The notes below the pieces were generated by a model, which saw nothing but the letters and a program-made list of their open reading frames with translations, searched no databases and was not told where the DNA came from. Positions 12,014-63,441 of a stretch of 64,000 nucleotides of DNA are shown in pieces (within the stretch, counting starts at the first letter, position 1; every line of letters begins with the position of its first letter). The position numbers and the translations under genes are program-made. Origin of the DNA: Marine Group II euryarchaeote MED-G34 (GTDB lineage Archaea > Thermoplasmatota > Poseidoniia > Poseidoniales > Thalassarchaeaceae); assembly GCA_002457605.1 (NCBI GenBank), contig NTJT01000002.1, forward strand, positions 10,850 through 74,849. The letters are read 5' to 3'.

Positions 12014-12091
12014 AGCGGGTTGGAGTAGCCAGGTTATCTCGTCGGGCTCATAACCCGGAGACCGGTAGTTCAAATCTACCACCCGCTACCA
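12014..12091 (+). tRNA. Initiator tRNA-Met (CAU), CCA encoded
   Basis: Hand-folded cloverleaf. Acceptor AGCGGGT/ACCCGCT with A1:U72. Anticodon stem carries three consecutive G:C pairs (GGG/CCC) flanking the loop CTCATAA. T arm GGTAG-TTCAAAT-CTACC. These are archaeal initiator features. Confidence 0.9.
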
Positions 12092-25509: not shown

Positions 25510-25540
25510 TCGTCTGTAGCGTGAAGCACCTGCTTCACGA

Positions 25541-39536: not shown

Positions 39537-39612
39537 TGGTAGTCCCTCCCGGATTCGAACCAGGGTCGTGGGATCCAGAACCCCACATGATGGACCACTA
39601 CACTAAGGGACT
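39537..39612 (-). tRNA. tRNA-Gln (CUG), CCA encoded
   Basis: The reverse complement AGTCCCTTAGTGTAGTGGTCCATCATGTGGGGTTCTGGATCCCACGACCCTGGTTCGAATCCGGGAGGGACTACCA folds as a cloverleaf. Anticodon loop TTCTGGA. A1:U72, typical of archaeal tRNA-Gln. Confidence 0.9.
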
Positions 39613-47189: not shown

Positions 47190-47275
47190 TACTTTGTTGA
47201 AACCACCAACTCCTATGGAGTTGCCAAACTCATTTGGGGCGAAGGCATAAGTGATGAGTGAAACTCCGGTTGAGC

Positions 47276-50200
47276 ATGCTGCATACGCTTGAGTCTACCC
47301 GAAATCGAACCAAGGAGGGTCGCAAGGCCGTCTTCATGGTGTTATTGATGCTGACCTCACTGATGGTTTCGTTAGTACCAGCCGTGAGTGCTTCACACAT
47401 CACTCAATACGCGGTGCAACGTGATCCAGCTCACCTCTCAGTGGGCGATCTGAACTGTGACGGCCACAACGACATCCTCTCGGTTAGCGTGATGGGGCAC
47501 TACATCACAGCTCTGTACAATGACGGACAAGGTAACTTCGCAGACAGGCAGGACGTGTTCATCTCGAACAACGCTTCGCAGCGTGCAGGTTTCGTAGATA
47601 CCGCCAACTCCGTCGACGCCGAGATTGCTGATATCGATGGCGATGGTGTGAATGATATCGTCTATTATCAGGAGAACATACGCTTCGTCGGAGAGAGTTT
47701 CGTCAGACCTGGTAACCTGACAACAATGTGGGGAGAATGCACCGAGAGGGTAAATCAGTGGGAAGACACCGAGATTACAGTCTCTAACCCGTATCACCTC
47801 GGGATGGAGGTTGGCGACATCGATGGGGATGACAATGCCGATATTGTTCTGCTGACAAGTGATGCCACAGCCACTAACCAGTACATCCAGATCTACCGTG
47901 GACCAGATCCTTCCCTTTTGACCAACCAGCAGTCAATCCCTGTCCCGCTGACCAACGGCATGTATGTCGAGACTCATTTGGGCCATTGGGGAGAGACCGT
48001 CCAAGGAGGTGGTATCGGAGTGCCTGTGGGCGACTGCGAAGATCTTGACCTCTGGCTCCTCAGGACACCTCCATACAATACTGGCGTGGGGACCTCTGTC
48101 GGGCACTATGACAACATGACCGTACTCGAGTACGACTGCATAACCAGCCAGTACCCAAACCCTCTGGATGCAACCGCTCAAGGAATCCACGAGTTCAAAC
48201 TCGATGCTGAGCACAACTACCCACTATACGGCCTCGACATCGCCGACACTGATGGAGACAACGAGATAGATCTCATCGCGGCAGTTGACGGAATCACTGG
48301 AAACATCTCCTATGCCACTAGGTCAGGCAGTAGTTGGAACACCCAGAACTACGTCTACCTCGGAGACTACCTCGGTGCCTCGATTACCATCGTGGATGTG
48401 AATCAGGACGGCGAGGTTGACTTCTTCGTACCTACTGAGGTAACTCTAACTCGTTTACAGGATTCATCAGCGCAGAACCAGACTTACTTGCTGCTGGAGA
48501 ACCTCCGTGAGATTAACTCCGTCGAGATTATCCTCGCCAATCCCAGTGGCCCAGGATACCTATCCTCTCTTTCATTCGATGTCGGACGTCGACCCACTAT
48601 GGCCATCCCTGGTCAACTCCAAGGGGGCGACAACAGCGCCTACGAGATTATCATTGGCCAGCGCGACTACTCCTACCGGTTCTCAGATGGAGCCATGTGG
48701 CTTGATACTCAAGGCTGGGCCGGGGCAGGCGATTTCCTCTCAGTACTAACTCTGGACAATGAGGACGTAGGTATCACAGGGGTAACTATCGCTCCCGCGT
48801 CATACAATCCTGCTACCGGAGAGGCCGAAATCGGCGAGGGTACTAGGTGGGTTAACGTGACCGTCAAGAACACAGGACTCAATCCTCTGACTGGATCTGT
48901 AGATGTCGACCTTGAGGTCAAGGAGGTCCTTGGTGGGACCGACACCGTGGTTTATTCAAATGACTTTGAGGGTAACGAGGATACCACTAACTGCGCCAAC
49001 TGTGCCTTCGCGAAGCACTCCTACACCGGGATGTACGGGACCGGAGCTTCATCTTGGCACATAGAGACCAACTCCACTGCCTCCACTCAGAACGTCTCAT
49101 GGTACGAAGCTGACAGCAACCCAACTGACTACTACTGGGCGGGTGTGGACTACAATGGCGACAACGAGACCGATTCGGGTTACTACAACAACATGGACGA
49201 GGCACTGATTCTAGAGAACGTTGACCTGACCGGTGCGGATGCTGCGTACATGGATCTCTCAGTGATGTGTACGACTGCGTTCTTTGAACTCTATTTGGCT
49301 GAGCAATACTCGGTCGTAGAGCGATGGTTGTACGAAGACTCGTGTGGAATCGAGGTCTGGACTGACGGCAACGGATGGGAATCTGTCTTCTTCAACGGTG
49401 GCTGGGATAATGAGCGCTACTTCCGTATATTATACCAAGGAGTTGACCCGGAATACAACACCTACAACAACAATTTCTACTATGAAACAGCCACTGGATG
49501 GTTGAACTACACAGAAGGAGGCGGAACCTCCCCCAACCCCGACGAGAGGGAATCTATCGATTTAACGCGATACGCGGGTCAAGTGGTTGACATCCGATTC
49601 CGCTTCCGTAGCGGTCTGATGGGCTCCGTTGGCCCCGCTGGGTCATCACAGGATACCGGCTATGACGGATTCGCCTTTGACAACATCACCATCAGGAAGA
49701 CGGACATAACATTCGGTACCACTGAGACCGTGAGTCAGCAGTTGAACTTCAACAACTTCGCAGCTGGTGCATCAGAAGAAGTAAGCCTCACTGCTGACTT
49801 CATCGACAACAGAACATACTACGTGAAGACCGAACTGACCAACCCCACGGGTTTCACCAACATGGACGAACTCAATGACGATATCAGATTCCAGTTGACA
49901 GTGAACAATTTGTTCGATCCGTGCCTTGCTGAGGAGCACTGGGTCGATTTGGAGAATGGAGTGAGGTACGCTTCAGGCGAGCGTGACATCCGTGTAAAGG
50001 CCCGTAATTGTGGCAACACTCTGACTGACTTCCAGTTAGAGGCATTCATTCAGAACGCCGAACCCGACCTCGTCGCAATCGAGGATTTCTCAGGCATCGA
50101 GCCAATGTGGTCAGATGATGGCAACGAGAATGGTAGCAGACTTGACGACTCTACCGGCTCGAATGACATGCTCCCACAGAATGTCGGTGTATTCAACAGC

Positions 50201-53200
50201 CACGCATATTGGCTGGGTCACCCGAGCGATGGTTATGGCGACAACTGGAATGAAACCGTGACATTGGACCCAATCCCCGTCGCGGCAACAGGGGCCGACT
50301 TCACCTACCTGACCTTCGACTACTACGCTGAGGGTGACTATCTCAAGGACAACAACGGCAACATCCTAGCTATTAGGGATGCAGCCAACTTAGAGATTAC
50401 TTGGACCAAGCAGGGAGAGGTCTTCGAGGGAGTTGTCTATGGAACTTGGACCGACCTTAATGAGAATGGCATCCAGAATACAAATCCAGAGGATCCTAAC
50501 TTCCACCGCTGCGAGGATTTCGATCTCAACGGCTACGATGAGGTCGAGTATTTCGGTGACCATTCAGACAACATCAACTCAGTGGTCTGGTTTGACTCCG
50601 AGAACATCCTCAAGTCAGTTACCGTTGACTTGACACATATTGTCATCCTGAACCGCACCAGTGCCGATACCGGAGATTGGCGCGACGAGTGCACATCTCT
50701 TTCTGGCTCCGATGTCTCCCTGACCTGGAGGTTCCAGTCGAATGACGATGGAGTTAACGGCAACGCCGGACTGTCCGGCTTCGGTGTTGACAACATCCGT
50801 GTAGAGGAGTTCACCTTCGAGGATGATGGGACCTACACAGTCGACGTGACTGGGCTTGATGCCTCTGAGCATCAGATAGTCAACATGGCTACACACGACT
50901 TCCAGAGTGGCATATACAAGATTGACGTGACCACTATCTTCGACAACACCGATCCGATGACTGCATGGTACAACGAGACTGAGGTTAACACCGCCAACAA
51001 CTACTCGTCGATTATCTTCAGCATCGCTAGTGCGGACATTACCTTGCTTCAGCCTGACGTGTTGGAGTGCGTGGCCGACATAACTTACGAATGCGTCTAC
51101 CCAATCGATGATGCATCGGCCCACAGTTTCGCTGTGCCGCTTCTTAATGGGGTCATCGCGGGCGAGTACCAGGTTACAATGAAGGTCGTTGATTTGGAAA
51201 CGGGACAGACCGTTTACGAAGAATCAAGCGACAACGGGCCGTTCGACCTTGCTCCTCATGAGAGGGGTCAGGCCAACTGGACAAATCCATACAATTCGTG
51301 GTATGACACACACACCTACAACATCAGTTTCTACGCTGACTTGTTCCAAGAGAACGGGACCCTCGAGTCCTCAGGTAACGACCGCTACTTTGAGATTCAG
51401 TTCTATGACAACATCGATGTCGCAATCCTGTCCAACCCTACAGACCAGAACCGTCTGCAGAGCGTCAAGAAGGATCTAGAGGCGATGGGTAAGACGTACA
51501 CTCAGCTGCGCATGGAAAACTGGGATACCTATGGGACACCTGACTGGGTTGAGCACTTCAACAAGGTGCTGCTGCCATGGCAGACCGATTACAATGTCTA
51601 CTACGGCGAGTACTATGAGGCACTGGCTGAGACCCGCGAAAGTGACGGACTCAGCCTAACTGAGACTCTCGAGGATTACATGAGTGGGGGAGGTACGGTG
51701 CAGATGCACCTCGGTCCTTACCGCAACGAGTACCAGCCGAACAGACTACCGTTTGGCATGGACATCGCGATGAGGAACCAGGTCAACTTCACCGTTGACA
51801 ACAGAGTCCACTATAGCAATCTGACCATTGTGGATCAGTACCATCCGATACTCAGCAACGTCGACCCGATTGCGTTCAGTGGAATCAATGGCGGATCGCA
51901 CGTCGCTCTGGCCGGACTCGATGCAGCACAAGTGCAATCCACTCAAATTCCGCAGGTATGCGGCGGTCGCATCAGTGATCCTACAGGGACCTTCCACACT
52001 TTGATGCGTGACACTGAATATGAAACCCAGTCTCTTTTATCACTATGTAATCGAGGTGCTGGAGGCCTGATAGTCACCACAATAGATGTCGAGAACCCGA
52101 GCGTGTCTGAGGAGTTTGGAGGATCAAGTATACCACTGCTCTCTAACATGCTGGCGTACCACATGACCCCCTATCCGAATGACTTCGGTATCGTTGAGGA
52201 AAGCTTTGATCTTACTATCAACGGAGTCGCGCCTTCGATAGACTCCGTCACAGGAGCCTACGCGACCATGTACATCAAGAGCAATTCTGATCTTGATTTC
52301 AGTTACGTTACGTCAGTTGAGGGAGTAGTAGCGGACTGGACACTAGAGTCTGGAAACAACGATTCAGTGACAGGATGGGATGGCTTGGTGATAGATGCCG
52401 ACGAGTATAGCCACACTCAGCAGATTAGCCCAAGCATCCCAACTCTCGGCTCCTTCTGCGTTGGCGACTCCTCTTCGACAACAGGTTGCCGAATCGGTGC
52501 CGAGTGGCTGCTCACTCTGTACCTGCATGACGAAGCCGGACACACTCGTATGACCTATGTTCGACTGGTCACAGATGATACTCTGGCCGACGAGTTCAGG
52601 CCGTTGGCAAGCGCAATCATGGTCGAAGACACCACTACCGATGAGTACATCAGCCTTGACGGCACCAAGACCGTCGCTGGCGTGGAATGGCCAATCTACA
52701 GAGCCAGACTGTCCGACACAGGCGACCTCAGCGTCTCGTTTGACGCCAGCGAGAGCTACGATCCCGATGCCCCTGAGGGCGAGAAAGGCATCGAGCTTTA
52801 CGAGTGGAAGGTCTTCTTCGATTATCCATGGGACAGTTCCGAGCCAACACTAGAGGGACACGTCTTCCAAATTCCAGCGGCCGCCGGAGGAGATGATTGG
52901 TCCTATGTATTCAGGAACCTGACTGCTAGTCCGGATGGAAATCTCGAGAACGAAATCCGAATCGAACTGATAGTCTACGATAAGGCAGGTAAGCAGAGTG
53001 AGAAGCACAGGATGTACTTCGTAGTCGTTGGAGAAGACTTCGGAGATGATGAGCCGATAGTGCAGTTCACCAACCCGGGCCCCAACGAGAACCAGAACGC
53101 TGACCTGGTGACAATTACTGGTACCTTGATTTCAGGCGCTGAGAATAGTGACGTCATCATCGAAGTCGCTCTGACTGAGGCTGTACTGGATTACACTCCA

Positions 53201-53698
53201 ACTCAGAAAATCACCCAGAAATCAATTGGTAAGTACAACGTCACGGAACTGCTCTCTGATAATCAACAGTTCACGATGACATTGGACATATCTGATCTCT
53301 ATCAAGAAACAGGCGTTGCTGCCACTATCTACGTGAAGATCAAAGAGGGCGACGGTGAGAGACACACCCTCTACCAGCAGATTGGAATCACACTAGTTCC
53401 TCATATTGAGGAGGTCGTGACCACCGATGAAAACGACGGTATGGACATGCTATTGATTGGTGGCATCGGGGTATTCGTCCTACTGCTCGTAGTAGTAGTC
53501 ACGATGATGATGCGCGGACGAGGCAAGGACTCTGATGAGGACACAGTCGAGCAGTTCGGAGGTGTTGAGGAGATGGATCCAGTAGAGGCTTATGTCCAGC
53601 AGATGGTTGCCTCAGGGTATGACGAACAGACTGCCCGGAAGTACGCTCAAGATTACTATGCCCAGTACTATGAACAGCAACGCAAGGGTGGAAGCTGA
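47276..53698 (+). CDS. Giant cell-surface protein: signal peptide, FG-GAP/VCBS-like repeats, long acidic ectodomain, C-terminal TM anchor and short cytoplasmic tail
   Basis: About 2140 aa from ATG 47276 (GTG 47258 alternative). Signal KAVFMVLLMLTSLMVSLVPAVSA. Repeats VGDLNCDGHNDIL, ADIDGDGVNDIVY, GDIDGDDNADIVLL, IADTDGDNEIDLIAA and VDVNQDGEVDFFVP lie at about 47440-48430. TM LLIGGIGVFVLLLVVVVTMMM at about 53441-53512. Confidence 0.85.
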   Translation: MLHTLESTRNRTKEGRKAVFMVLLMLTSLMVSLVPAVSASHITQYAVQRDPAHLSVGDLNCDGHNDILSVSVMGHYITALYNDGQGNFADRQDVFISNNASQRAGFVDTANSVDAEIADIDGDGVNDIVYYQENIRFVGESFVRPGNLTTMWGECTERVNQWEDTEITVSNPYHLGMEVGDIDGDDNADIVLLTSDATATNQYIQIYRGPDPSLLTNQQSIPVPLTNGMYVETHLGHWGETVQGGGIGVPVGDCEDLDLWLLRTPPYNTGVGTSVGHYDNMTVLEYDCITSQYPNPLDATAQGIHEFKLDAEHNYPLYGLDIADTDGDNEIDLIAAVDGITGNISYATRSGSSWNTQNYVYLGDYLGASITIVDVNQDGEVDFFVPTEVTLTRLQDSSAQNQTYLLLENLREINSVEIILANPSGPGYLSSLSFDVGRRPTMAIPGQLQGGDNSAYEIIIGQRDYSYRFSDGAMWLDTQGWAGAGDFLSVLTLDNEDVGITGVTIAPASYNPATGEAEIGEGTRWVNVTVKNTGLNPLTGSVDVDLEVKEVLGGTDTVVYSNDFEGNEDTTNCANCAFAKHSYTGMYGTGASSWHIETNSTASTQNVSWYEADSNPTDYYWAGVDYNGDNETDSGYYNNMDEALILENVDLTGADAAYMDLSVMCTTAFFELYLAEQYSVVERWLYEDSCGIEVWTDGNGWESVFFNGGWDNERYFRILYQGVDPEYNTYNNNFYYETATGWLNYTEGGGTSPNPDERESIDLTRYAGQVVDIRFRFRSGLMGSVGPAGSSQDTGYDGFAFDNITIRKTDITFGTTETVSQQLNFNNFAAGASEEVSLTADFIDNRTYYVKTELTNPTGFTNMDELNDDIRFQLTVNNLFDPCLAEEHWVDLENGVRYASGERDIRVKARNCGNTLTDFQLEAFIQNAEPDLVAIEDFSGIEPMWSDDGNENGSRLDDSTGSNDMLPQNVGVFNSHAYWLGHPSDGYGDNWNETVTLDPIPVAATGADFTYLTFDYYAEGDYLKDNNGNILAIRDAANLEITWTKQGEVFEGVVYGTWTDLNENGIQNTNPEDPNFHRCEDFDLNGYDEVEYFGDHSDNINSVVWFDSENILKSVTVDLTHIVILNRTSADTGDWRDECTSLSGSDVSLTWRFQSNDDGVNGNAGLSGFGVDNIRVEEFTFEDDGTYTVDVTGLDASEHQIVNMATHDFQSGIYKIDVTTIFDNTDPMTAWYNETEVNTANNYSSIIFSIASADITLLQPDVLECVADITYECVYPIDDASAHSFAVPLLNGVIAGEYQVTMKVVDLETGQTVYEESSDNGPFDLAPHERGQANWTNPYNSWYDTHTYNISFYADLFQENGTLESSGNDRYFEIQFYDNIDVAILSNPTDQNRLQSVKKDLEAMGKTYTQLRMENWDTYGTPDWVEHFNKVLLPWQTDYNVYYGEYYEALAETRESDGLSLTETLEDYMSGGGTVQMHLGPYRNEYQPNRLPFGMDIAMRNQVNFTVDNRVHYSNLTIVDQYHPILSNVDPIAFSGINGGSHVALAGLDAAQVQSTQIPQVCGGRISDPTGTFHTLMRDTEYETQSLLSLCNRGAGGLIVTTIDVENPSVSEEFGGSSIPLLSNMLAYHMTPYPNDFGIVEESFDLTINGVAPSIDSVTGAYATMYIKSNSDLDFSYVTSVEGVVADWTLESGNNDSVTGWDGLVIDADEYSHTQQISPSIPTLGSFCVGDSSSTTGCRIGAEWLLTLYLHDEAGHTRMTYVRLVTDDTLADEFRPLASAIMVEDTTTDEYISLDGTKTVAGVEWPIYRARLSDTGDLSVSFDASESYDPDAPEGEKGIELYEWKVFFDYPWDSSEPTLEGHVFQIPAAAGGDDWSYVFRNLTASPDGNLENEIRIELIVYDKAGKQSEKHRMYFVVVGEDFGDDEPIVQFTNPGPNENQNADLVTITGTLISGAENSDVIIEVALTEAVLDYTPTQKITQKSIGKYNVTELLSDNQQFTMTLDISDLYQETGVAATIYVKIKEGDGERHTLYQQIGITLVPHIEEVVTTDENDGMDMLLIGGIGVFVLLLVVVVTMMMRGRGKDSDEDTVEQFGGVEEMDPVEAYVQQMVASGYDEQTARKYAQDYYAQYYEQQRKGGS

Positions 53699-53742: not shown

Positions 53743-55026
53743 GTGGTGACAGCGCTGGATGTGGACACATCCGGACCACATACTGTAGCCGACATTTCTC
53801 TCGCCGATGTTGGCGAGGCCAGAATCTCGTGGGCCCGGAGCAGGATGCCGGCGTTGGCAGCCTTGCGAGCCGCTACAGAGAGCGAAAAACCACTCGCTGG
53901 TCAACGCATCGCCGGTTGTCTACACGTCACTAAGGAGACTGCAGTCCTAATTGAGACACTGAGGGCGGCTGGGGCCGAGGTTTCGTGGTCCGGCTGCAAT
54001 CCGCTCTCGACTCAGGATGACGTGGCGGCATGGCTGGCAAGGGAAGGCTACAGCATCCACGCTTGGTACGGCCAGGGGACCGAGGATTTCTACCGGTGTA
54101 TCGACCGAACCCTCGACTTTGGCCCGACACTGACTCTCGATGACGGCGCCGATCTAATCTATCGGGTTCACAGTAGCTTTTCTGAGTTAGCAGAAGGCAT
54201 CATCGGAGGCACCGAGGAGACGACCACAGGAGTTCACCGCCTACGGGCGATGGCCGATGCGGGGGAGTTACTGTATCCGGTTATCGCAGTGAATGATGCG
54301 GCTACCAAGTGGGACTTCGACAACGTGCATGGCACCGGTCAATCGACTCTGGATGGCATCATCAGAGCCACCAGCGTTCTCTTGGCCGGCAAGGATTTCG
54401 TTGTCGCAGGCTACGGCCACTGCGGCAAGGGACTAGCCATGCGTGCTAGAGGGATGGGCGCAAACGTCATCGTGACCGAAGTAGATCCATTGCCAGCTTT
54501 GAGTGCGGTAATGGATGGTTTCAGAGTAATGAAGATGGATGACGCCTCTTCTCTAGGGGATATTTTCTGCACTGCCACCGGGATGAAGGACGTGATTGTA
54601 GGTAGGCATTTCGAGTCAATGAAAGACGGCGCCATAGTCTGCAATACCGGGCACTATGACTGCGAGATTAGCATACCCGATCTCGAGGATAGGTCCACTG
54701 GCTACCGCACAATCAGGGAGAATAATGAAGCCTTCCAAATGGAGAATGGTCGTACAATACATCTCCTAGCGAGGGGCCGTTTGGTGAACCTCGCCGCCGC
54801 CGAAGGTCATCCCAGCGAGGTGATGGACATGTCGTTCGCCAATCAGTTCCTAGCATTGTGTCGTCTAGCCTCTGAGGGCAGTGACTATGACAACAAAGTC
54901 TACGACATCAGTCCTGAGCAAGATACCGAGTTGGCCGCACTAAAACTCAAGACAGCAGGAATCAGCATCGACGAGTTGACGCCCGAGCAGACTGCCTACC
55001 TCGACGACTTCAGCGCTGGGACCTAG
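53743..55026 (+). CDS. ahcY: Adenosylhomocysteinase
   Basis: 427 aa. CLHVTKETAVLIETL, SCNPLSTQDDVAA, EETTTGV, NAD-binding GYGHCGKG and GHYDCEI blocks. Confidence 0.96.
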   Translation: MVTALDVDTSGPHTVADISLADVGEARISWARSRMPALAALRAATESEKPLAGQRIAGCLHVTKETAVLIETLRAAGAEVSWSGCNPLSTQDDVAAWLAREGYSIHAWYGQGTEDFYRCIDRTLDFGPTLTLDDGADLIYRVHSSFSELAEGIIGGTEETTTGVHRLRAMADAGELLYPVIAVNDAATKWDFDNVHGTGQSTLDGIIRATSVLLAGKDFVVAGYGHCGKGLAMRARGMGANVIVTEVDPLPALSAVMDGFRVMKMDDASSLGDIFCTATGMKDVIVGRHFESMKDGAIVCNTGHYDCEISIPDLEDRSTGYRTIRENNEAFQMENGRTIHLLARGRLVNLAAAEGHPSEVMDMSFANQFLALCRLASEGSDYDNKVYDISPEQDTELAALKLKTAGISIDELTPEQTAYLDDFSAGT

Positions 55027-56081
55027 TCCTCCAATGCCTCTAACTCATCTGCTTCGATTTTCTCTTGAGTCTCGGTAAACCAATCCTCCTCGATAATCGA
55101 GAATTCGGGAATGTCAGGATTCCACCTTATCGGCAGTTTGTCTCCAGACTGCACTACTAGTTCGAGTCTCTCGCCCAGAGCTGGCATCCTCTGTCCAATC
55201 ATGGCGGCGTACAACTTGCTGTATCTGATGGTTTCCGGTATGCAGATCCTCCCGCTACTGGTCTCGAAATCTATCGCACGGTCGAGGTCTAGGGCATGCC
55301 GATTCAGTTTGTGTAGTAATCCTGAGGTGACACGTGATATCGCCATGAAACAAATCAATATGAAGATGAATACCATGAGAAATCCCCATGTTGAATCTCC
55401 GACGAGCGTCATCGAAATAGTCCCGAGTAGGAATACTATGGGCGCGATGAAGGTAATCAGGAAGAAAGTGGGAGAGATTGGCTTGCGTTTCTTCATCCTC
55501 TCGATAACCGCCCAGCGTGGATGTTTGGGGTTCTGAGGTCTGAAGATTTCATCCTCTTCCATTTTAGCGGCTCTGGATACCATCCGGCTCACTGATTCCA
55601 TACGAGCAAGTTGGTTGCTGCTGGTGGCTTCCATGCCCTCATCGAAAAGATCTTCAAGAAGTTCAGCACACTCCTCATAGTGCCCCATTCTGACTAGAAT
55701 AGCTATCTGTTCGATTAACGGAGCGACTTCGTAAGGAGCGATTTCACGCCTGTCCTGCCACCACCTGAGACCATCTTCTAGCATCCCTAGGTGGTCAACT
55801 AGGAGGACTCCTCCAAGTCTCCAAGCCTCAAAGTTCTCTGGGTCTATCTGCACGACTTTACGCAGTGCCGTCATCGCCTTCGCTGACTGCTCGAGGTCAG
55901 GTTGCACCTGTTTACCTCTGGACTCAGTAGGTAGTGACCAGCGGGCCACTCCCATCCACCCGTCGACGTGAGTAGGATCGATGGCCACAGTTTTTCTGGC
56001 TGCCTCGAGGGAACTGACTCTGTCGCCTGACTGCTCTGCCTCTACCGCATCGAGCCATGTCATCTCGGCGCTCTTGGCCAT
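55023..56081 (-). CDS. TPR-like repeat protein with two TM helices (hypothetical)
   Basis: ATG 56081 preferred; the longest ORF, to 56135, overlaps the upstream stop by 4 nt. N-terminal TPR-like helices (AIDPTHVDGWMGVARW, VQIDPENFEAWRLGGVLL). TM pair FFLITFIAPIVFLLGTISMTLV / FLMVFIFILICFMAI. Confidence 0.65.
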   Translation of the reverse strand: MAKSAEMTWLDAVEAEQSGDRVSSLEAARKTVAIDPTHVDGWMGVARWSLPTESRGKQVQPDLEQSAKAMTALRKVVQIDPENFEAWRLGGVLLVDHLGMLEDGLRWWQDRREIAPYEVAPLIEQIAILVRMGHYEECAELLEDLFDEGMEATSSNQLARMESVSRMVSRAAKMEEDEIFRPQNPKHPRWAVIERMKKRKPISPTFFLITFIAPIVFLLGTISMTLVGDSTWGFLMVFIFILICFMAISRVTSGLLHKLNRHALDLDRAIDFETSSGRICIPETIRYSKLYAAMIGQRMPALGERLELVVQSGDKLPIRWNPDIPEFSIIEEDWFTETQEKIEADELEALED

Positions 56082-56131
56082 GACCCTTGCTGGGGCGCGT
56101 GATGCATGAAGGCTGGGGTGTGGATTGACAA

Positions 56132-57052
56132 TCAACGGCCTCTGCCCTTGTGTCTGCTACTTGGACGGCCCCCGCCCTTCCAGTTGTCTCTGGGATTCGG
56201 CCTACGTCGCCTCCCCTGTGTCTTCCTCGATCCTTTACCTTCGACCGGCTTCCGAGTGTCACAGCGGTTGCACATAGTCCTCGAGGCGTAATTGTGATTT
56301 TTGCACTTAGGGCAATTCCAGTCTCCTGGCTTCATATTTGAGTTATTGAAGCCGCCTGAGTTATTTGATCGATATCCGCGAGAATTTCCACCTCTTCCAC
56401 CACCACCTCTCGGTTTTGGCTCTTCACAACCGGTGCGATTGCAAACTTTCTTGTTTGAGAAATTATGATTTTTGCACTTCGGGCAGCTCCAGTCTCCTGG
56501 CTTCATATTTGAGTTATTGAAGCCGCCTGAGTTATTTGATCGATATCCGCGAGAATTCCCACCTCTTCCACCACCACCTCTCGGTTTTGGCTCTTCACAA
56601 CCATTGCGATTGCAAACTTTCTTGTTTGCATAATTGTGATTTTTGCACTTCGGGCAGCTCCAGTCTCCTGGCTTCATACTTGAGCCCCTGTCTCCTCCGA
56701 ACTTGCGGTCCCGGCCCCTTTGATCGTTACCTTGTCTACTGCCTGGACGACTATCGCGCCCCCTTCTGAATTTACTTTCGCCCGTACGACTATTGTGTCG
56801 ACTTCGGTTGGCCCTCCCGCTAGGAGCAATCTCAACTGGCGACCCTATTGCGCTAGATCCCTCTACACCTTCGTTCAGAGGATGTACGTGAACCAGAGGT
56901 TCGTTGGATGGGCCTAACACAGTTTCCACTCTTCCAAGCGTCTTCCCTCCGACGACTCGAATACCGGCTCCCAACCTAGGTGCGCGCCCATCAAAGGAGA
57001 CCAAGAGCCCACCTTCGTGCGACTCTCTGGACACTCTGCCGGAGAAGCTCAT
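56132..57052 (-). CDS. Gar1-like beta-barrel protein fused to RGG-rich linkers and three RanBP2-type zinc fingers
   Basis: 306 aa. Residues 1-78 (SGRVSRESHEGGLLVSFDGRAPRLGAGIRVVGGKTLGRVETVLGPSNEPLVHVHP...IGSPVEI) follow the archaeal Gar1 pattern. The ZnFs are GDWSCPKCKNHNYANKKVCNRNGC (aa 129-152), GDWSCPKCKNHNFSNKKVCNRTGC (186-209) and GDWNCPKCKNHNYASRTMCNRC (243-264). The third is canonical W-x-C-x2-C-x3-N-x6-C-x2-C. Linkers are PRGGGGRGGNSRGYRSNNSGGFNNSN. Basic RG-rich C-terminus. Confidence 0.7.
   Translation of the reverse strand: MSFSGRVSRESHEGGLLVSFDGRAPRLGAGIRVVGGKTLGRVETVLGPSNEPLVHVHPLNEGVEGSSAIGSPVEIAPSGRANRSRHNSRTGESKFRRGRDSRPGSRQGNDQRGRDRKFGGDRGSSMKPGDWSCPKCKNHNYANKKVCNRNGCEEPKPRGGGGRGGNSRGYRSNNSGGFNNSNMKPGDWSCPKCKNHNFSNKKVCNRTGCEEPKPRGGGGRGGNSRGYRSNNSGGFNNSNMKPGDWNCPKCKNHNYASRTMCNRCDTRKPVEGKGSRKTQGRRRRPNPRDNWKGGGRPSSRHKGRGR
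56295..56687 (-). repeat. 171-bp (57-codon) near-identical tandem repeat, two full units plus a partial third, inside the Gar1-ZnF gene
   Basis: Units 56295-56465 and 56466-56636 differ at about ten positions by eye, with long identical runs. The third copy starts at 56637 and diverges after about 50 nt. Each unit encodes one ZnF plus one RGG linker. Confidence 0.9.
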
Positions 57053-57055
57053 GGC

Positions 57056-59089
57056 TCAGCCGCGGCGCCTACCATACATGAGGGCTGCGACTGCCGCCAT
57101 GGTCACAATAGGGAGGCCTACTGCAGGTAGCAGACCACCTTCATCCTCTTCTTCGGAAGGAGTCAGGGGTTCTGGCTCAGGCTCATCGAAGAGATGCGAG
57201 TTGTTCACTATCTGAAAGACTTCTGAGCACTTACCTGAGGTATCACACCCTTCGATTGTGATGCCGTGCTCCCCTTCGCTCCACAGTTCGAAGTTGATAT
57301 TCGGAGTGGACCACGTATTCCCGGTGGAGCTCACTGAACCTGTCTGCGAACCATCTATGGACATTGAGAATACCACAGATTCTCCGTCCGGATCACTGTA
57401 CTGTCCTTGCATTGACCACTGCGACCCATCCCACTCAGTATTCATTATCGTTAACACGGGTGGTGCAGACTCCTTGCTCAAACCGATATCATACACGTGC
57501 TCGAGAGAATATACCTCGGCGGTGTCAACGACGCTGACCCAGACCCCCACTGGGCCGGGCAGTGAGTTGGATGAAGAAAGATCTACTGTGACTTCTCCGG
57601 TGAATGTAATCGTGGAAGTGGGTGAAGACTGCCCGTCCTGAATCAGCCCAATCTCGATTTCTAAATCGGGCCAGTCTGAAGTTGGGCTGATTGTAATCGG
57701 ATGAGGGTCGCTCAGAGTCTGCGTGGATGTCGAAAGAGAGAACGGCACGCCTAGGTTCCATGTCCTACTGCCTGTGCTTTGTCCTGCTGAGTCGACAGCC
57801 TCGCAACTCACTTCTGCAGTATTGCCGCGAGGAATCTCAGCCCACCACGATCGGTCGCCGCCCTCCGACAGCTGTAGGGAAGGTGCTCCGGTGCAGCGGA
57901 CATCCAACTTAGAGACACTCTCCTCGTCAGAGAACCATTGTGAGACATCTTCCCAATACGCCCAGACGTGCTGCCCTCCGTTAGGAGATGGGAACCACGC
58001 GCCCTCTGGAGGCGCAACATCGGTCCACTCAGGGGGGTCATCGACAGGAACAGGGGCTGTAGTAAAGTCCGCGAATAGGTCTTCGCCAAGTGGCCAATCG
58101 ACGCGAGGGGAGTCGGGACTGAGGCTGTATGTCAGACTGCCGTCAGCATTCTCGGTGATTGAGTACGTTGAGGAACCGTCGCCTATACAACTGCCTCGAA
58201 GTGGCGCCTGACCCCCTGCGGTTTCCTCATCCAGTCCGACATCTCTGCCTTCACATTCATCCCACAAGTCGAGACGCAGGTCTTGGGTAACCGGGAATGT
58301 AAAATCGAGCTTCGCACCAGACATATTAGAGGCATTGAGCACCAGTGTGAAGTTGCTGCTGTCAAAGAACCCATGGATGTCCGCCGTCGCATTCAGCCAT
58401 AGTTTGATGCGACATTCATCCATGCCCTGGGAAGCCGCGATATCAGTGTCACAGTCGCGGTTTTCATCGGGAATCACCGGAACCTCCTCACAGTCGTTGC
58501 CAAAGGCAGAGGTACATTCACGAATTTGAGAGTGCCTAATTGGAACAATATTGAACTCCTGGATATCTACCCCATCCTCTTCCCAAGAGGTGTTCTTCCA
58601 GTCCACTCCGCCCCCACCTCTGTGAGATGGACCGTCCCGGATGCCTATTCTGGTTAGTGTGTGTTCTATGCACTCACTCGCAAGTGCGCGAAAGAACTCC
58701 CTCTCATCGGTTGAGATCCAACTGTCACCGCCATCGTTTGGATCAACTTCAGCCATGAATTCGTCCATCGATACGCGAAGGTCGTCCGCCAGCGTTTCGT
58801 TGACCCAAGCAACTGCTCGAACATCTGCCGACCCCCAGTCCTCATTCACTACGATATCGAAGGTCGCGTGAGTGTACTCAAACAGGTTCTCAAAGGTGAT
58901 TGAGCCGCATTGATCCTCAAGTGAACCCCCTCCTCCTAGTTGATCCATGCGTACAGGTTCATCTTCTAAGTGATCGAAATCCCCTCTTCCTTGGTCTGGG
59001 GGCGCCAGCATTGAGAGAATCATTAGGAAAGTGAGTACGCTGGCTATGGCACCCCTGTCCATACACTGGCAAGCGAAAGCGCGCATCAT
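57056..59089 (-). CDS. Secreted acidic surface protein with an extreme C-terminal hydrophobic anchor and basic end
   Basis: 677 aa. Signal-like AIASVLTFLMILSMLAPP. Acidic Cys-containing ectodomain. Ends ...EEEDEGGLLPAVGLPIVTMAAVAALMYGRRRG. The stop lies 3 nt before the next gene's start. Confidence 0.75.
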   Translation of the reverse strand: MMRAFACQCMDRGAIASVLTFLMILSMLAPPDQGRGDFDHLEDEPVRMDQLGGGGSLEDQCGSITFENLFEYTHATFDIVVNEDWGSADVRAVAWVNETLADDLRVSMDEFMAEVDPNDGGDSWISTDEREFFRALASECIEHTLTRIGIRDGPSHRGGGGVDWKNTSWEEDGVDIQEFNIVPIRHSQIRECTSAFGNDCEEVPVIPDENRDCDTDIAASQGMDECRIKLWLNATADIHGFFDSSNFTLVLNASNMSGAKLDFTFPVTQDLRLDLWDECEGRDVGLDEETAGGQAPLRGSCIGDGSSTYSITENADGSLTYSLSPDSPRVDWPLGEDLFADFTTAPVPVDDPPEWTDVAPPEGAWFPSPNGGQHVWAYWEDVSQWFSDEESVSKLDVRCTGAPSLQLSEGGDRSWWAEIPRGNTAEVSCEAVDSAGQSTGSRTWNLGVPFSLSTSTQTLSDPHPITISPTSDWPDLEIEIGLIQDGQSSPTSTITFTGEVTVDLSSSNSLPGPVGVWVSVVDTAEVYSLEHVYDIGLSKESAPPVLTIMNTEWDGSQWSMQGQYSDPDGESVVFSMSIDGSQTGSVSSTGNTWSTPNINFELWSEGEHGITIEGCDTSGKCSEVFQIVNNSHLFDEPEPEPLTPSEEEDEGGLLPAVGLPIVTMAAVAALMYGRRRG

Positions 59090-63195: not shown

Positions 63196-63280
63196 GCAGG
63201 GGTACCCGAGTGGTCAAAGGGGCTGGGTTTAGGTCCCAGTGCGTAGTGCTTCGCAGGTTCAAATCCTGTCCCCTGCACCA
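63196..63280 (+). tRNA. tRNA-Leu (UAG), long variable arm, CCA encoded
   Basis: GCAGGGG acceptor paired with CCCCTGC. Anticodon stem-loop CTGGG-TTTAGGT-CCCAG. Variable arm TGCGTAGTGCTTCGCA. T arm GGTTCAAATCC. Confidence 0.92.
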
Positions 63281-63356: not shown

Positions 63357-63441
63357 GCAGGGGTTCCCGAGCGGTCAAAGGGGCAGCGTTCAGGTCGCTG
63401 TGCGTAGTGCTTCGCAGGTTCGAATCCTGTCCCCTGCACCA
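63357..63441 (+). tRNA. tRNA-Leu (CAG), long variable arm, CCA encoded
   Basis: Same acceptor stem and variable arm as the upstream tRNA-Leu. Anticodon stem-loop CAGCG-TTCAGGT-CGCTG. Confidence 0.92.

What the first reader, a model, noticed from the sequence alone, without database searches (positions are those of the whole stretch)
56132..57052. Gar1-like barrel fused to RGG boxes and three RanBP2-type zinc fingers: a eukaryote-style RNA-binding architecture in an archaeon
Seen in sequence: the first ~78 aa follow the archaeal Gar1 pattern (G+V...G.L+V....P.+G..V.......LG+V..V.GP...P.+.V.P......+G..V). After an R/S/G-rich spacer come three zinc fingers separated by RGG-type linkers (PRGGGGRGGNSRGYRSNNSGGFNNSN). 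The third finger fits the RanBP2 consensus W-x-C-x2-C-x3-N-x6-C-x2-C exactly. The first two have C-x4-C as the last pair. The protein ends in a basic RG tail. Established knowledge: archaeal Gar1 proteins are normally short bare barrels. Glycine/arginine-rich flanks are a eukaryotic Gar1 trait. The RGG plus RanBP2-ZnF combination is characteristic of eukaryotic RNA-binding proteins such as FUS/EWS/TAF15 and ZRANB2. Inference: this could be an H/ACA RNP subunit, or a Gar1-barrel paralogue, that gained additional ssRNA-binding modules. I do not know of a described archaeal example.
Basis: partly seen in the sequence, partly recalled or inferred. Interest (0 to 1): 0.8.

Follow-up and report, generated by a model that had tools for sequence, protein, structure and literature searches.

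The report
Archaeal Gar1 with RNA-finger tail
A marine archaeon's version of Gar1, a small subunit of the RNA-guided pseudouridine machinery, carries a disordered arginine/glycine-rich tail with three zinc fingers of the kind eukaryotic RNA-binding proteins use, and the same gene is found across its whole order (Poseidoniales), contradicting the textbook view that archaeal Gar1 is always a bare barrel.

Summary
ORF 56132-57052 (minus strand, 306 aa) encodes an N-terminal Gar1-type barrel. After it come three RanBP2-type zinc fingers separated by disordered R/G/S/N-rich linkers, then a basic tail.

The fingers pass Pfam easily (E=4e-20). The barrel fails Pfam's and NCBIfam's curated Gar1 cut-offs as a single sequence. 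Three other lines show it is Gar1:
- A confident model (pLDDT 89) superposes best on archaeal Gar1 from Cbf5-Nop10-Gar1 crystals (TM 0.77-0.85).
- A family profile reaches bona fide Gar1, including Methanothermobacter MTH_886, in an exhaustive library search.
- A profile-profile comparison gives 98.75% probability.

It is not an assembly chimera. 108 species genomes of Poseidoniales (Marine Group II) carry the gene, one locus each in the 80 fetched, always in the same three-gene block. Long-read MAGs show 2-3 fingers.

The barrel and a basic tail are constant. Finger number varies from 0 to 4, driven by a 171-nt tandem repeat.

All zinc ligands and most ZRANB2/FUS-type RNA-contact residues are conserved under purifying selection.

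Most likely this is the order's Gar1 orthologue with an added RNA-tethering tail. I could not test Cbf5 binding or the absence of a second Gar1. I found no published description. It is a new variant of a known kind.

The parts
56132..57052 (-). Complete CDS (306 aa plus stop codon) of the Gar1-barrel / RanBP2-finger protein
   Evidence: ORF list. Orthologues of 87-92% identity have the same length. The MSFSG start is conserved across the family.
56819..57052 (-). Residues 1-78: six-stranded Gar1-type beta-barrel
   Evidence: AF2 pLDDT 89.4. Foldseek top hits are 2ey4_D/C and 2hvy_B, archaeal Gar1, TM 0.77-0.85, rmsd 2.0 A, and the top 15 are all Gar1 or Naf1. hhalign against canonical Gar1 gives 98.75%, E=1.5e-16. 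dN/dS 0.15.
56681..56818 (-). Residues 79-124: disordered R/S/G/D-rich spacer
   Evidence: pLDDT <50 in the full-length model. Length and sequence vary among orthologues.
56579..56680 (-). Residues 125-158: RanBP2-type finger 1, a C-x2-C...C-x4-C variant with ligands C133, C136, C147 and C152
   Evidence: One of three Pfam PF00641 stretches. The cysteines are invariant in 19 orthologues. pLDDT ~81. dN/dS 0.09.
56510..56578 (-). Residues 159-181: RGG-containing linker 1 (GGGGRGGNSRGYRSNNSGGFNNS)
   Evidence: Sequence. pLDDT <50. Part of the 171-nt repeat.
56408..56509 (-). Residues 182-215: RanBP2-type finger 2, a C-x4-C variant with ligands C190, C193, C204 and C209
   Evidence: dN/dS 0.03.
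56339..56407 (-). Residues 216-238: RGG-containing linker 2, identical in protein sequence to linker 1
56240..56338 (-). Residues 239-271: RanBP2-type finger 3, canonical C-x2-C...C-x2-C with ligands C247, C250, C261 and C264. It keeps D4, N14, Y17, R20 and N24 of the ZRANB2-type RNA-contact set.
   Evidence: Best Pfam stretch, residues 241-269. PDB sequence hits to ZNF265/ZRANB2, FUS and Nup153. Contact positions taken from PMC6384913. dN/dS 0.11.
56135..56239 (-). Residues 272-306: basic disordered tail with a conserved R-x-R-x-P...R motif (R281, R283, P285, R288)
   Evidence: Invariant columns in alignment A4. pLDDT <50. dN/dS 0.05. A basic tail is present in all 74 complete orthologues.
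56290..56684 (.). 171-nt tandem DNA repeat (2.3 copies, 94% identity) that encodes the finger-plus-linker unit. It is the substrate for changes in finger number.
   Evidence: TRF. Finger counts of 1-4 occur among proteins 87-92% identical to the window's and 0-4 among species.
57056..59089 (-). Upstream operon partner: a 677-aa acidic protein with an N-terminal hydrophobic segment and a C-terminal TM segment followed by RRRG. It has no known domain, and its stop codon lies 3 nt before the Gar1 start.
   Evidence: No Pfam, PDB or NCBIfam match. Syntenic in all loci long enough to show it, down to ~40-45% identity.
55023..56135 (-). Downstream operon partner: a TPR-containing membrane protein of about 330-370 aa (the true start is probably downstream of the listed TTG)
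   Evidence: Pfam TPR_14. PDB TPR hits. Syntenic in all loci.

Best explanation
This gene is the Gar1 orthologue of Poseidoniales (Marine Group II archaea); the window comes from a Candidatus Thalassarchaeum-like MGIIb genome.

Inferred from established Gar1 biology: the N-terminal barrel docks on the catalytic domain of the pseudouridine synthase Cbf5. There it controls the thumb loop, and so substrate placement and product release, in the H/ACA RNP and in guide-independent Cbf5-Nop10-Gar1 activity.

Shown by sequence, model and comparison: a lineage-specific C-terminal appendage is attached to the barrel. It is a polycationic, disordered R/G/S-rich chain carrying 0-4 independently folded RanBP2-type zinc fingers, three in this genome.

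Inferred function of the appendage: it acts as a flexible, multivalent tether for single-stranded RNA. It would raise the local concentration of rRNA or tRNA substrate, or hold the RNP on nascent rRNA. This is analogous to the GAR/RGG domains of eukaryotic Gar1.

The fingers carry the ZRANB2/FUS-type RNA-contact signature, so they may prefer GGU/GGN-like motifs. Fingers 1 and 2 have Lys instead of Arg at position 20 and are probably less specific.

Unequal recombination in the 171-nt repeat changes finger number, which would tune avidity between lineages.
For: Barrel is Gar1:
- AF2 pLDDT is 89.4.
- The Foldseek top 15 are all Gar1 or Naf1. Archaeal Gar1 from Cbf5 complexes is best, at TM 0.77-0.85 and rmsd 2.0 A.
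- Four of the six best PDB sequence hits to the family profile are Gar1.
- Weak Pfam and NCBIfam hits go only to Gar1 models.
- An exhaustive profile search reaches P0231 (Pfam Gar1 33.5 bits, above the cut-off) at E=1.6e-5 and P0241, the Methanothermobacter MTH_886 Gar1, at E=8.4e-4.
- hhalign gives 98.75%, E=1.5e-16, over 73 columns, and every residue invariant in the canonical set aligns to a conserved family position.
- A canonical-Gar1 HMM hits only this ORF in the window, at 49 bits.

Orthologue-like behaviour:
- 108 GTDB species genomes carry the gene, with one locus per assembly among the 80 kept.
- The gene block is the same in all of them and in the two most divergent branches.
- The barrel has dN/dS 0.15.

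Functional tail:
- All 12 cysteines are invariant at 49-92% identity.
- Finger dN/dS is 0.03-0.11.
- The fingers are modelled as folded beads (pLDDT 76-83) on disordered linkers.
- Across 146 distinct fingers, D4, N14, N16, F/Y17, R/K20 and N24 are 94-100% conserved. D4, N14, position 17, R19, R20 and N24 are the positions PMC6384913 marks as important in ZRANB2 ZF2.

Precedent:
- The RGG domains of eukaryotic Gar1 modulate RNP conformation and substrate turnover (PMC8096250).
Against: - As a single sequence the barrel fails the curated Gar1 cut-offs: Pfam 14.1 against 29.3 bits, NCBIfam 18 against 139.
- The five canonical sequences used for hhalign were picked because the family profile had already found them, which inflates that score.
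- I could not show that these genomes have Cbf5, Nop10 and L7Ae, or that they lack a second, bare Gar1.
- None of those genes, and no tfb gene, lies in the 64-kb window.
- The gene is tightly packed between two membrane or surface proteins. That context is not typical for gar1 and gives no support.
- A third of species have no fingers, so the fingers cannot be essential to the core function.
- Finger 3 has Ser at position 19, and fingers 1-2 have Asn or Ser at 19 and Lys at 20. PMC6384913 reports a K19/S20 finger that did not bind RNA. RNA binding by each finger is therefore inference.
Confidence: 0.68

Rival explanations
1. It is a Gar1-fold paralogue that works without Cbf5. On this reading it is a stand-alone RNA-binding or RNA-chaperone protein, possibly linked to its two conserved membrane or surface operon partners (for example acting on their mRNAs). 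A separate canonical Gar1 elsewhere in the genome would serve the H/ACA RNP.
For: - The barrel is divergent enough to miss the Pfam and NCBIfam Gar1 cut-offs.
- It has its own signature, SHEGGLL...EIAP.
- The three-gene block with an orphan 677-aa surface protein and a TPR membrane protein is conserved across the order, with a 3-nt intergenic gap.
- Eukaryotes do have a Gar1-fold paralogue, Naf1, which appears among the fold matches.
Against: - Archaeal Gar1 outranks Naf1 and every other barrel in the fold search.
- All residues invariant in the canonical Gar1 set align to conserved family positions.
- The exhaustive profile search produced no second, intermediate Poseidoniales-like bare Gar1 class.
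- The gene behaves as a single-copy housekeeping gene across 108 species.
- Archaeal operons often mix unrelated functions.
Confidence: 0.2
2. It is a Gar1 orthologue, but the fingers mediate protein-protein or DNA contacts rather than RNA binding, as the Ran-, ubiquitin- or exportin-binding RanBP2/NZF fingers do. Alternatively the whole tail mainly drives self-association or condensate formation.
For: - The RanBP2 finger family includes members that bind proteins (PMC6384913; PMC6509490).
- The best PDB sequence hit is the Nup358/RanBP2 finger cluster.
- Fingers 1-2 deviate at positions 19 and 20, and the paper reports a K19/S20 finger that failed to bind RNA.
- R/G-rich disordered regions are linked to phase separation (PMC8096250).
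Against: - The Nup358 hit is boosted by the presence of several fingers.
- The family consensus D-W...N-x-N-F-[AS]-[FKR]-R..C-N-R-C matches the RNA-binding subclass. That includes the aromatic at position 17 that PMC6384913 used to define putative RNA binders, and F19, which mimics W19 of FUS and EWS.
- Archaea have no Ran or nuclear transport system (general knowledge).
Confidence: 0.08
3. It is an artefact: an assembly chimera joining a gar1 gene to eukaryotic finger sequence, or a repeat array mis-assembled from short reads.
For: A 171-nt repeat at 94% identity is the kind of sequence short-read assemblers collapse or expand. Proteins 87-92% identical to the window's show 1, 2, 3 or 4 fingers.
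Against: - The same fusion occurs in more than 240 protein clusters and 108 species genomes from independent projects.
- It also occurs in long-read MAGs: L036 on a 1.6-Mb contig and L018 with 3 fingers, L044 and L074 with 2.
- The reading frame is intact, with purifying selection in every segment.
- Only the exact copy number in this particular window stays uncertain.
Confidence: 0.02

Closest known systems
Archaeal Gar1 (H/ACA sRNP subunit; for example M. jannaschii in PDB 2EY4, P. furiosus in 2HVY, Methanothermobacter MTH_886)
   Same: - The barrel has the same size and fold (TM 0.77-0.85).
- The conserved Gly, Pro and Val positions are shared.
- The barrel starts at the very N-terminus.
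- It is a single-copy gene.
   Different: - Canonical proteins are 75-95 aa and bare, or have at most a short basic end. This protein adds ~230 residues of disordered R/G-rich chain with three zinc fingers.
- The barrel is divergent (22-29% identity), has its own SHEGGLL and EIAP motifs, and falls below the curated HMM cut-offs.
- Reviews state that archaeal Gar1 lacks GAR regions (PMC7991803).
Eukaryotic Gar1 (yeast Gar1p, human GAR1)
   Same: A Gar1 barrel joined to disordered glycine/arginine-rich regions thought to give accessory RNA binding (PMC8096250). The fold match has TM ~0.74. Some relatives, such as P0139, carry long RGG-repeat, eukaryote-like GAR tails with no finger.
   Different: - Eukaryotic Gar1 has GAR domains on both sides of the barrel and no zinc fingers.
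- Here there is no N-terminal extension, the window protein has only four RGG triplets, and the tail carries RanBP2 fingers.
- The two appendages probably arose independently (inference).
ZRANB2 / FUS-EWS-TAF15 / RBM5-RBM10 class of ssRNA-binding RanBP2-type zinc fingers
   Same: - Pfam PF00641 match, with direct sequence hits to ZNF265/ZRANB2 (E=1.3e-4) and FUS (E=1.3e-3) finger structures.
- D4, N14, the aromatic at 17, R20 and N24 are conserved. F19 in the family consensus parallels W19 of FUS and EWS.
- The fingers are embedded in RGG-type disorder, as in FET proteins.
   Different: - There is no RRM, no SYGQ-rich or SR domain, and the host is not a eukaryote.
- The fingers form a tandem array attached to a Gar1 barrel.
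- Fingers 1-2 have a C-x4-C final pair and K20.
- RNA binding and any GGU preference are untested.
Naf1 (eukaryotic H/ACA assembly factor with a Gar1-like domain)
   Same: It has a Gar1-fold barrel with long flanking disordered regions and appears among the fold matches (2v3m, TM ~0.64).
   Different: It ranks lower than every Gar1 match. Naf1 is not known in archaea and has no fingers. Nothing here suggests a placeholder role.
ArnA of Sulfolobus (an archaeal protein with an N-terminal RanBP2-type zinc-finger motif)
   Same: It shows that RanBP2-type fingers are not unprecedented in archaea (PMC6509490).
   Different: It has a single finger fused to an FHA domain and belongs to a signalling and motility context in a different phylum. 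It has no RNA-modification link and no tandem array.

Membership tests
Gar1 (PF04410; H/ACA RNP subunit) | Six-stranded Gar1 beta-barrel fold | tested here: met
   AF2 model pLDDT 89.4. The best Foldseek matches are archaeal Gar1 chains 2ey4_D/C and 2hvy_B, at TM 0.77-0.85 and rmsd 2.0 A over 76-77 columns. The top 15 matches are all Gar1 or Naf1.
Gar1 (PF04410; H/ACA RNP subunit) | Single-sequence score above the curated family cut-offs | tested here: not met
   Pfam Gar1 scores 14.1 bits, E=0.041, against a cut-off of 29.3. NCBIfam PRK13149 models score 12-18 bits against cut-offs of 103-139. This is an operational threshold, not a biological property. Only Gar1 models appear among the weak hits to this region.
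Gar1 (PF04410; H/ACA RNP subunit) | Statistically significant sequence relationship to bona fide Gar1 proteins | tested here: met
   - The family profile finds P0231 at E=1.6e-5 and Methanothermobacter Gar1 (P0241) at E=8.4e-4 among 1.84 billion representatives. Both pass Pfam's Gar1 cut-off, and P0241 is named Gar1 by its sources.
- hhalign gives 98.75%, E=1.5e-16. Caveat: the canonical set was chosen from the family profile's own hits.
- The canonical HMM scores the window ORF at 49 bits.
Gar1 (PF04410; H/ACA RNP subunit) | Binds the catalytic domain and thumb loop of Cbf5 | not testable with these tools
   No complex prediction was possible, and no Cbf5 sequence from these genomes was in reach. 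It would need AF-multimer or pull-down with the cognate Cbf5-Nop10.
Gar1 (PF04410; H/ACA RNP subunit) | It is the only Gar1-like gene of a genome that also encodes Cbf5, Nop10 and L7Ae | not testable with these tools
   - Only 20 kb or less per genome could be fetched.
- Within reach, there is one locus per assembly in 80 species genomes.
- The 64-kb window has no second Gar1-like ORF and no partner genes.
RanBP2-type zinc finger (PF00641) | Score above the curated cut-off, with each finger matched | tested here: met
   71.2 bits against a cut-off of 27, E=4e-20, in three stretches.
RanBP2-type zinc finger (PF00641) | Consensus W-x-C-x2-4-C-x3-N-x6-C-x2-C with four conserved Cys ligands | tested here: met
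   - Finger 3 matches exactly. Fingers 1-2 match except for a C-x4-C last pair.
- That variant is a 2-residue insertion specific to the window's clade, since distant orthologues have C-x2-C at the same fingers.
- All 12 cysteines and the D-W pair are invariant in 19 orthologues.
- The fingers are modelled as folded units with pLDDT 76-83.
- Zinc binding itself was not testable.
ssRNA-binding subclass of RanBP2 fingers (ZRANB2, FUS, EWS, RBM5/10) | RNA-contact set D4, N14, aromatic 17, R19, R20 and N24 (numbering of PMC6384913) | tested here: inconclusive
   - Finger 3 has D, N, Y, S, R, N (5 of 6).
- Fingers 1-2 have D, N, Y or F, N or S, K, N (4 of 6, with a conservative R20K change).
- Family-wide, D4 is 99-100%, N14 96-100%, F/Y17 100%, R20 100% in C-x2-C fingers and K20 98% in C-x4-C fingers, and N24 94-100%.
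- The paper notes that a K19/S20 finger did not bind RNA, while a K19/R20 finger (RBM5) does.
- Binding has not been measured.
FET proteins (FUS/EWS/TAF15) | SYGQ-rich low-complexity domain, an RRM, RGG boxes and a single RanBP2 finger | tested here: not met
   Pfam finds no RRM or other FET domain. Only the RGG-plus-finger modules resemble FET proteins. This protein is not a member.
GAR/RGG domain as in eukaryotic Gar1 | Extended, disordered glycine/arginine-rich repeats flanking the barrel | tested here: inconclusive
   - The disordered tail (pLDDT <50) is about 30% R+G in the close relatives L005 and L007, with four RGG triplets in the window.
- Relatives reach 50% R+G or carry long RGG-repeat runs.
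- The tail is C-terminal only.
- Arginine methylation and function were not testable.

The most novel reading that the evidence does not exclude
One of the ocean's most abundant archaeal orders has equipped its H/ACA pseudouridylation machinery with a eukaryote-like appendage. It arose either independently or by acquiring a finger from a eukaryote. The appendage is a multivalent RG-rich disordered chain with FUS/ZRANB2-type fingers. It would recognise G-rich ssRNA motifs and concentrate the RNP on nascent rRNA, perhaps forming a nucleolus-like condensate. On this reading, GAR-type tails on Gar1 are a convergent answer to a shared problem rather than a eukaryotic invention, and finger copy number is an evolvable control of RNA avidity.
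Probability: 0.2. Interest if true: 0.8.

Novelty: new variant of a known kind. Interest (0 to 1): 0.6.

Why it matters
Reviews of H/ACA RNPs treat GAR/RGG extensions of Gar1 as eukaryote-specific and describe archaeal Gar1 as a minimal barrel (PMC7991803, PMC8096250). This gene shows that an entire, globally abundant archaeal order breaks that rule.

Why that is useful:
- **A natural experiment.** The appendage combines the two module types (RG-rich disorder and RanBP2 fingers) that mark eukaryotic RNA-binding proteins such as FUS. Orthologues carry 0, 1, 2, 3 or 4 fingers on the same barrel, so the contribution of such tails to an RNA-guided modification enzyme can be compared directly.
- **A small, tractable system.** Archaeal Cbf5-Nop10-L7Ae-Gar1 complexes are routinely reconstituted. 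That makes it possible to test whether accessory RNA tethering changes substrate capture and product release.
- **Annotation.** It explains why Gar1 goes unannotated in Poseidoniales MAGs. NCBI calls the protein 'hypothetical' or 'zinc finger protein', because the barrel scores below the curated HMM cut-offs.

Tried and rejected
- **Single-sequence HMM searches for Gar1** (Pfam, NCBIfam, PDB phmmer). Only sub-threshold hits, so I moved to a family profile, structure prediction and profile-profile comparison.
- **Genome scan with the broad alignment A3.** I repeated it with A1, so the scan mainly sampled Thalassarchaeaceae (MGIIb). The divergent branches were reached through two look-ups instead.
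- **Large search with the intermediate P0222-type barrel**, meant to bridge to canonical Gar1 and obtain organism names. No candidate shared enough words.
- **Last large protein search.** I ran no further search on canonical Gar1. Only the best 120 hits are listed, so it could not show the absence of a second Gar1 in Poseidoniales.
- **H/ACA partner genes, a tfb neighbour or a second Gar1 in the window.** None found. Rfam at gathering thresholds found only four tRNAs.
- **Function of the two conserved operon partners.** The 677-aa ORF has no Pfam, PDB or NCBIfam match. The 370-aa ORF shows only generic TPR similarity.
- **Gar1 residues that contact Cbf5.** I looked in PMC4551948 so that I could check their conservation, but the paper mutates only Cbf5 thumb-loop residues.
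- **Prior descriptions in the literature.** Gar1+RanBP2+archaea, Gar1+Poseidoniales, Gar1+Marine Group II and Gar1+Zn-ribbon+fused all returned nothing relevant.
- **Rejected readings.** Assembly chimera (too many independent and long-read assemblies). FET-family membership (no RRM or SYGQ domain). Recent foreign origin judged from composition (finger GC 0.44-0.49 against a window mean of 0.54 is a small difference, explained by Lys/Asn-rich codons).
Full report
**1. The observation**

The ORF is at 56132-57052 on the minus strand. It is 306 aa long and starts with ATG. The translation contains three fingers:
- WSCPKCKNHNYANKKVCNRNGC, starting at residue 131.
- WSCPKCKNHNFSNKKVCNRTGC, starting at residue 188.
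- WNCPKCKNHNYASRTMCNRC, starting at residue 245.

The two linkers are identical (GGGGRGGNSRGYRSNNSGGFNNS), and the C-terminus is basic and RG-rich.

The finger pattern is not a chance match. Pfam Zn_ribbon_RanBP scores 71.2 bits against a cut-off of 27, E=4e-20, in three stretches. In 1.36 Mb of related DNA read in six frames, the pattern occurs only in this gene.

**2. Is the N-terminus Gar1?**

As a single sequence it is not convincing:
- Pfam Gar1 gives E=0.041 and 14.1 bits, against a cut-off of 29.3.
- The best NCBIfam Gar1 model gives E=0.0022, far below its cut-off.

- **Structure.** An alignment of 18 family barrels (A1) gave an AlphaFold model with pLDDT 89.4. Its best matches in the PDB are the archaeal Gar1 chains of the Cbf5-Nop10-Gar1 and H/ACA RNP crystals (2ey4_D/C, 2hvy_B), at TM 0.77-0.85 and rmsd 2.0 A. 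Next come yeast, human and insect Gar1, then Naf1. The top 15 are all Gar1-fold proteins.
- **Exhaustive search.** An HMMER search of 1.84 billion representative proteins with A1 found 123 proteins. Most are family members. It also reached short bare proteins at E=1.6e-5 to 8e-4.
  - Two of these pass Pfam's Gar1 cut-off, and two more fall just short of it.
  - One is the Methanothermobacter MTH_886 protein, which its sources name Gar1.
- **Profile-profile.** hhalign of A1 against these canonical sequences gives 98.75% probability, E=1.5e-16, over 73 of 82 columns. Every invariant canonical position aligns to a conserved family position. The canonical set was selected by the family profile itself, which flatters this number. 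The fold search and the Pfam checks do not share that bias.
- **Within the window.** A canonical-Gar1 HMM hits only this ORF.

I conclude that the barrel is a divergent but genuine Gar1 domain.

**3. Distribution and orthology**

- The full-length search gave 247 homologues. Nearly all have the same MSF-G-V...SHEGGLL barrel followed by 1-4 fingers.
- Named members come from 'Candidatus Poseidoniales', 'Euryarchaeota' or 'Methanobacteriota' MAGs.
- JGI auto-labels several 'Zn-ribbon protein/rRNA processing protein Gar1'. NCBI calls them hypothetical or 'zinc finger protein'.
- A scan of one genome per GTDB species found 108 genomes with a relative. The 80 fetched loci come from 80 different assemblies, one locus each.
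- These are all Thalassarchaeaceae or Poseidoniales, apart from two bins labelled as bacteria. The window's nearest relative is a Candidatus Thalassarchaeum MAG, at 96% barrel identity.

In every locus long enough to show it, the gene sits between homologues of the window's 677-aa upstream ORF and its 370-aa downstream ORF. The upstream homologue is only 40-50% identical in the most distant loci.

The same block surrounds the two most divergent branches I could look up:
- P0265 has three or more fingers.
- P0253 has a degenerate zinc ribbon.

So this is one orthologous, single-copy locus across the order, not a sporadic fusion and not a chimera.

**4. Anatomy and evolution of the tail**

The full-length model is beads on a string:
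- a confident barrel (residues 1-78);
- three small folded units at about 125-158, 182-215 and 239-271, with pLDDT 76-83;
- linkers and a final tail with pLDDT below 50.

In 19 orthologues of 49-92% identity, all 12 ligand cysteines, the D-W pairs and the N-x-N motifs are invariant. A short C-terminal motif (R281, R283, P285, R288) is invariant too.

Distant orthologues have C-x2-C where the window has C-x4-C. The variant is therefore a 2-residue insertion specific to this clade.

Every segment is under purifying selection against a 90%-identical orthologue. dN/dS is 0.15 for the barrel, 0.03-0.11 for the fingers and 0.05 for the tail. The substitution counts are small.

Among 74 complete species-level orthologues the finger number is 0 in 25, 1 in 4, 2 in 32, 3 in 12 and 4 in 1. 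All of them keep a basic R/G/K/S-rich tail.

Short-read assemblers can mis-count such repeats. Long-read MAGs nonetheless show 3 fingers (L036 on a 1.6-Mb contig, and L018) and 2 fingers (L044, L074), so the arrays are real.

The two linkers of one protein share substitutions that differ between species (compare the window with P0005). That points to concerted evolution of the repeat.

On a neighbour-joining tree of the barrel, fingers occur on all deep branches. Finger-less forms cluster mostly in one MGIIb clade. This suggests an old acquisition with later losses and copy-number changes. An 80-residue tree is weak evidence, so this is inference.

Other family members have long RGG-repeat tails without fingers, for example P0139.

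**5. What the fingers probably do**

Across 146 distinct fingers of the family, these residues were not imposed by my search pattern:

| Position | Residue | Conservation |
|---|---|---|
| 4 | D | 99-100% |
| 14 | N | 96-100% |
| 16 | N | 99-100% |
| 17 | F or Y | 100% |
| 20 | R in C-x2-C fingers | 100% |
| 20 | K in C-x4-C fingers | 98% |
| 24 | N | 94-100% |

F is the commonest residue at position 19.

PMC6384913 describes the ZRANB2-ZF2:GGU structure in the same numbering:
- W17 stacks between bases.
- R19 and R20 hydrogen-bond the two guanines.
- N14 and N24 read the uridine.
- D4 is important and widely conserved.
- FUS and EWS have W at position 19 without loss of specificity.
- Characterised RNA-binding fingers prefer GGU/GGN.

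Direct sequence hits of finger 3 to the ZNF265/ZRANB2 and FUS finger structures agree with this.

The family consensus therefore belongs to the ssRNA-binding subclass. In the window:
- Finger 3 keeps five of the six contact residues (S at 19).
- Fingers 1-2 keep four, with a conservative R20K change.

The same paper reports that a K19/S20 finger did not bind RNA. RNA binding by fingers 1-2, and any GGU preference, remain inference.

**6. Mechanism proposed**

- **Shown here:** a Gar1 barrel; a disordered polycationic tail; conserved zinc ribbons with an RNA-binder signature; order-wide single-copy conservation.
- **From established knowledge:**
  - Gar1 binds Cbf5 and not the guide RNA.
  - It switches the thumb loop between open and closed states.
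  - It controls product release and turnover.
  - It stimulates both guide-dependent and guide-independent activity (PMC8096250; abstracts of PMC4551948, PMC3443816 and PMC6138745).
- **Inferred:** in Poseidoniales the barrel plays this role. The tail gives the RNP extra, multivalent affinity for single-stranded substrate RNA, or keeps it on nascent rRNA.
- **Analogy:** this resembles what is proposed for the RGG domains of eukaryotic Gar1. Deleting them changes RNP dynamics and turnover, and they may contact substrate (PMC8096250).

Because finger-less orthologues exist, the fingers would add avidity or specificity rather than an essential function.

**7. What remains open**

I could not show that these genomes encode Cbf5, Nop10 and L7Ae, or that they lack a second bare Gar1. 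Only 20 kb or less per genome was in reach, and the window holds none of these genes.

The tight, conserved packing needs an explanation. Only 3 nt separate the upstream stop codon from this start codon. The neighbours are an orphan acidic surface-anchored protein and a TPR membrane protein.

That packing is the main support for the rival reading of a Cbf5-independent paralogue. I give that reading about 0.2.

**8. Comparison with what is known, and novelty**

- Reviews state that archaeal Gar1 lacks the GAR regions and is much smaller than the eukaryotic protein (PMC7991803; PMC8096250).
- A RanBP2-type finger has been noted in one archaeal protein, ArnA (PMC6509490), so the finger alone is not new to archaea.
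- I found no paper that describes a Gar1-finger fusion or discusses Gar1 in Marine Group II.
- Automatic annotation at JGI has picked up both parts.

I therefore class it as a new variant of a known kind. It is a genuine Gar1 with an undescribed, lineage-wide, eukaryote-like RNA-binding appendage.

I rate interest at 0.6. It contradicts a textbook generalisation and offers a natural series of 0-4 fingers for experiments. However, the core function is expected, and the key functional claims are still inference.

Noticed in passing
window 55023-59089 (minus strand); loci L001-L087: The Gar1 gene is the middle gene of a three-gene block conserved across Poseidoniales. Upstream is an orphan, very acidic ~660-690-aa protein with an N-terminal hydrophobic segment and a C-terminal TM segment followed by RRRG; it has no Pfam, PDB or NCBIfam match. 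Downstream is a ~330-370-aa TPR membrane protein. Only 3 nt separate the upstream stop codon from the Gar1 start. Why a Gar1 gene is locked to these two genes is unexplained.
   Followed up: partly
window 56290-56684: A 171-nt tandem repeat at 94% identity encodes the finger-plus-linker unit. Proteins 87-92% identical to the window's have 1, 2, 3 or 4 fingers, and the two linkers within one genome share substitutions, which indicates concerted evolution. The copy number in short-read assemblies, possibly including this window, may be unreliable.
   Followed up: partly
L047 (PBUF01000091.1) and L076 (PARX01000028.1): Two GTDB species-representative MAGs titled 'Gammaproteobacteria bacterium' and 'Rhodobacteraceae bacterium' carry this archaeal three-gene block at 67-70% barrel identity. 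The contigs are most likely Poseidoniales contamination in bacterial bins.
   Followed up: no
L086/L087 10001-10648 (protein P0253) and P0153/P0155: One divergent branch of the family has a single shortened zinc ribbon (TWVC-x2-C-x3-N-x5-C-x2-C). It lacks the aromatic at position 17 and is not recognised by Pfam as RanBP2. It is possibly a degenerate finger.
   Followed up: no
P0139, and P0130-P0132; L019-L035 and others: Some orthologues have no finger. They carry either a long RGG-repeat tail, eukaryote-like (P0139, GGYGDRRGGGGGYRGGGDRR repeats), or a K/R/S-rich basic tail of ~70-85 aa. The constant feature of the family is therefore the barrel plus a polycationic disordered tail.
   Followed up: partly
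window 47258-53698 (+): A giant 2146-aa ORF whose only Pfam hit is an FG-GAP repeat. A ~2155-2181-aa counterpart lies close to the Gar1 block in divergent relatives (L085, L086, L087), so it is part of the conserved neighbourhood.
   Followed up: no
window 21724-25578 (-): A 1284-aa secreted-type subtilase with a proprotein-convertase P-domain, MopE-like metal-binding motifs and TSP3 repeats. A large S8 peptidase with RCC1/WD40 repeats sits in the equivalent neighbourhood of distant relatives (L001).
   Followed up: no
window 35403-36818 (-): A 471-aa ORF with a retroviral-type (gag-polyprotein-like) aspartyl protease domain, which is unusual in an archaeal chromosome.
   Followed up: no
window 63196-63277 and 63357-63438 (+): Two long-arm (82-nt) tRNA genes lie 80 nt apart at the end of the window. 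Two further tRNAs are at 12014-12088 and 39540-39612. No other Rfam family reaches its gathering score in the window.
   Followed up: no
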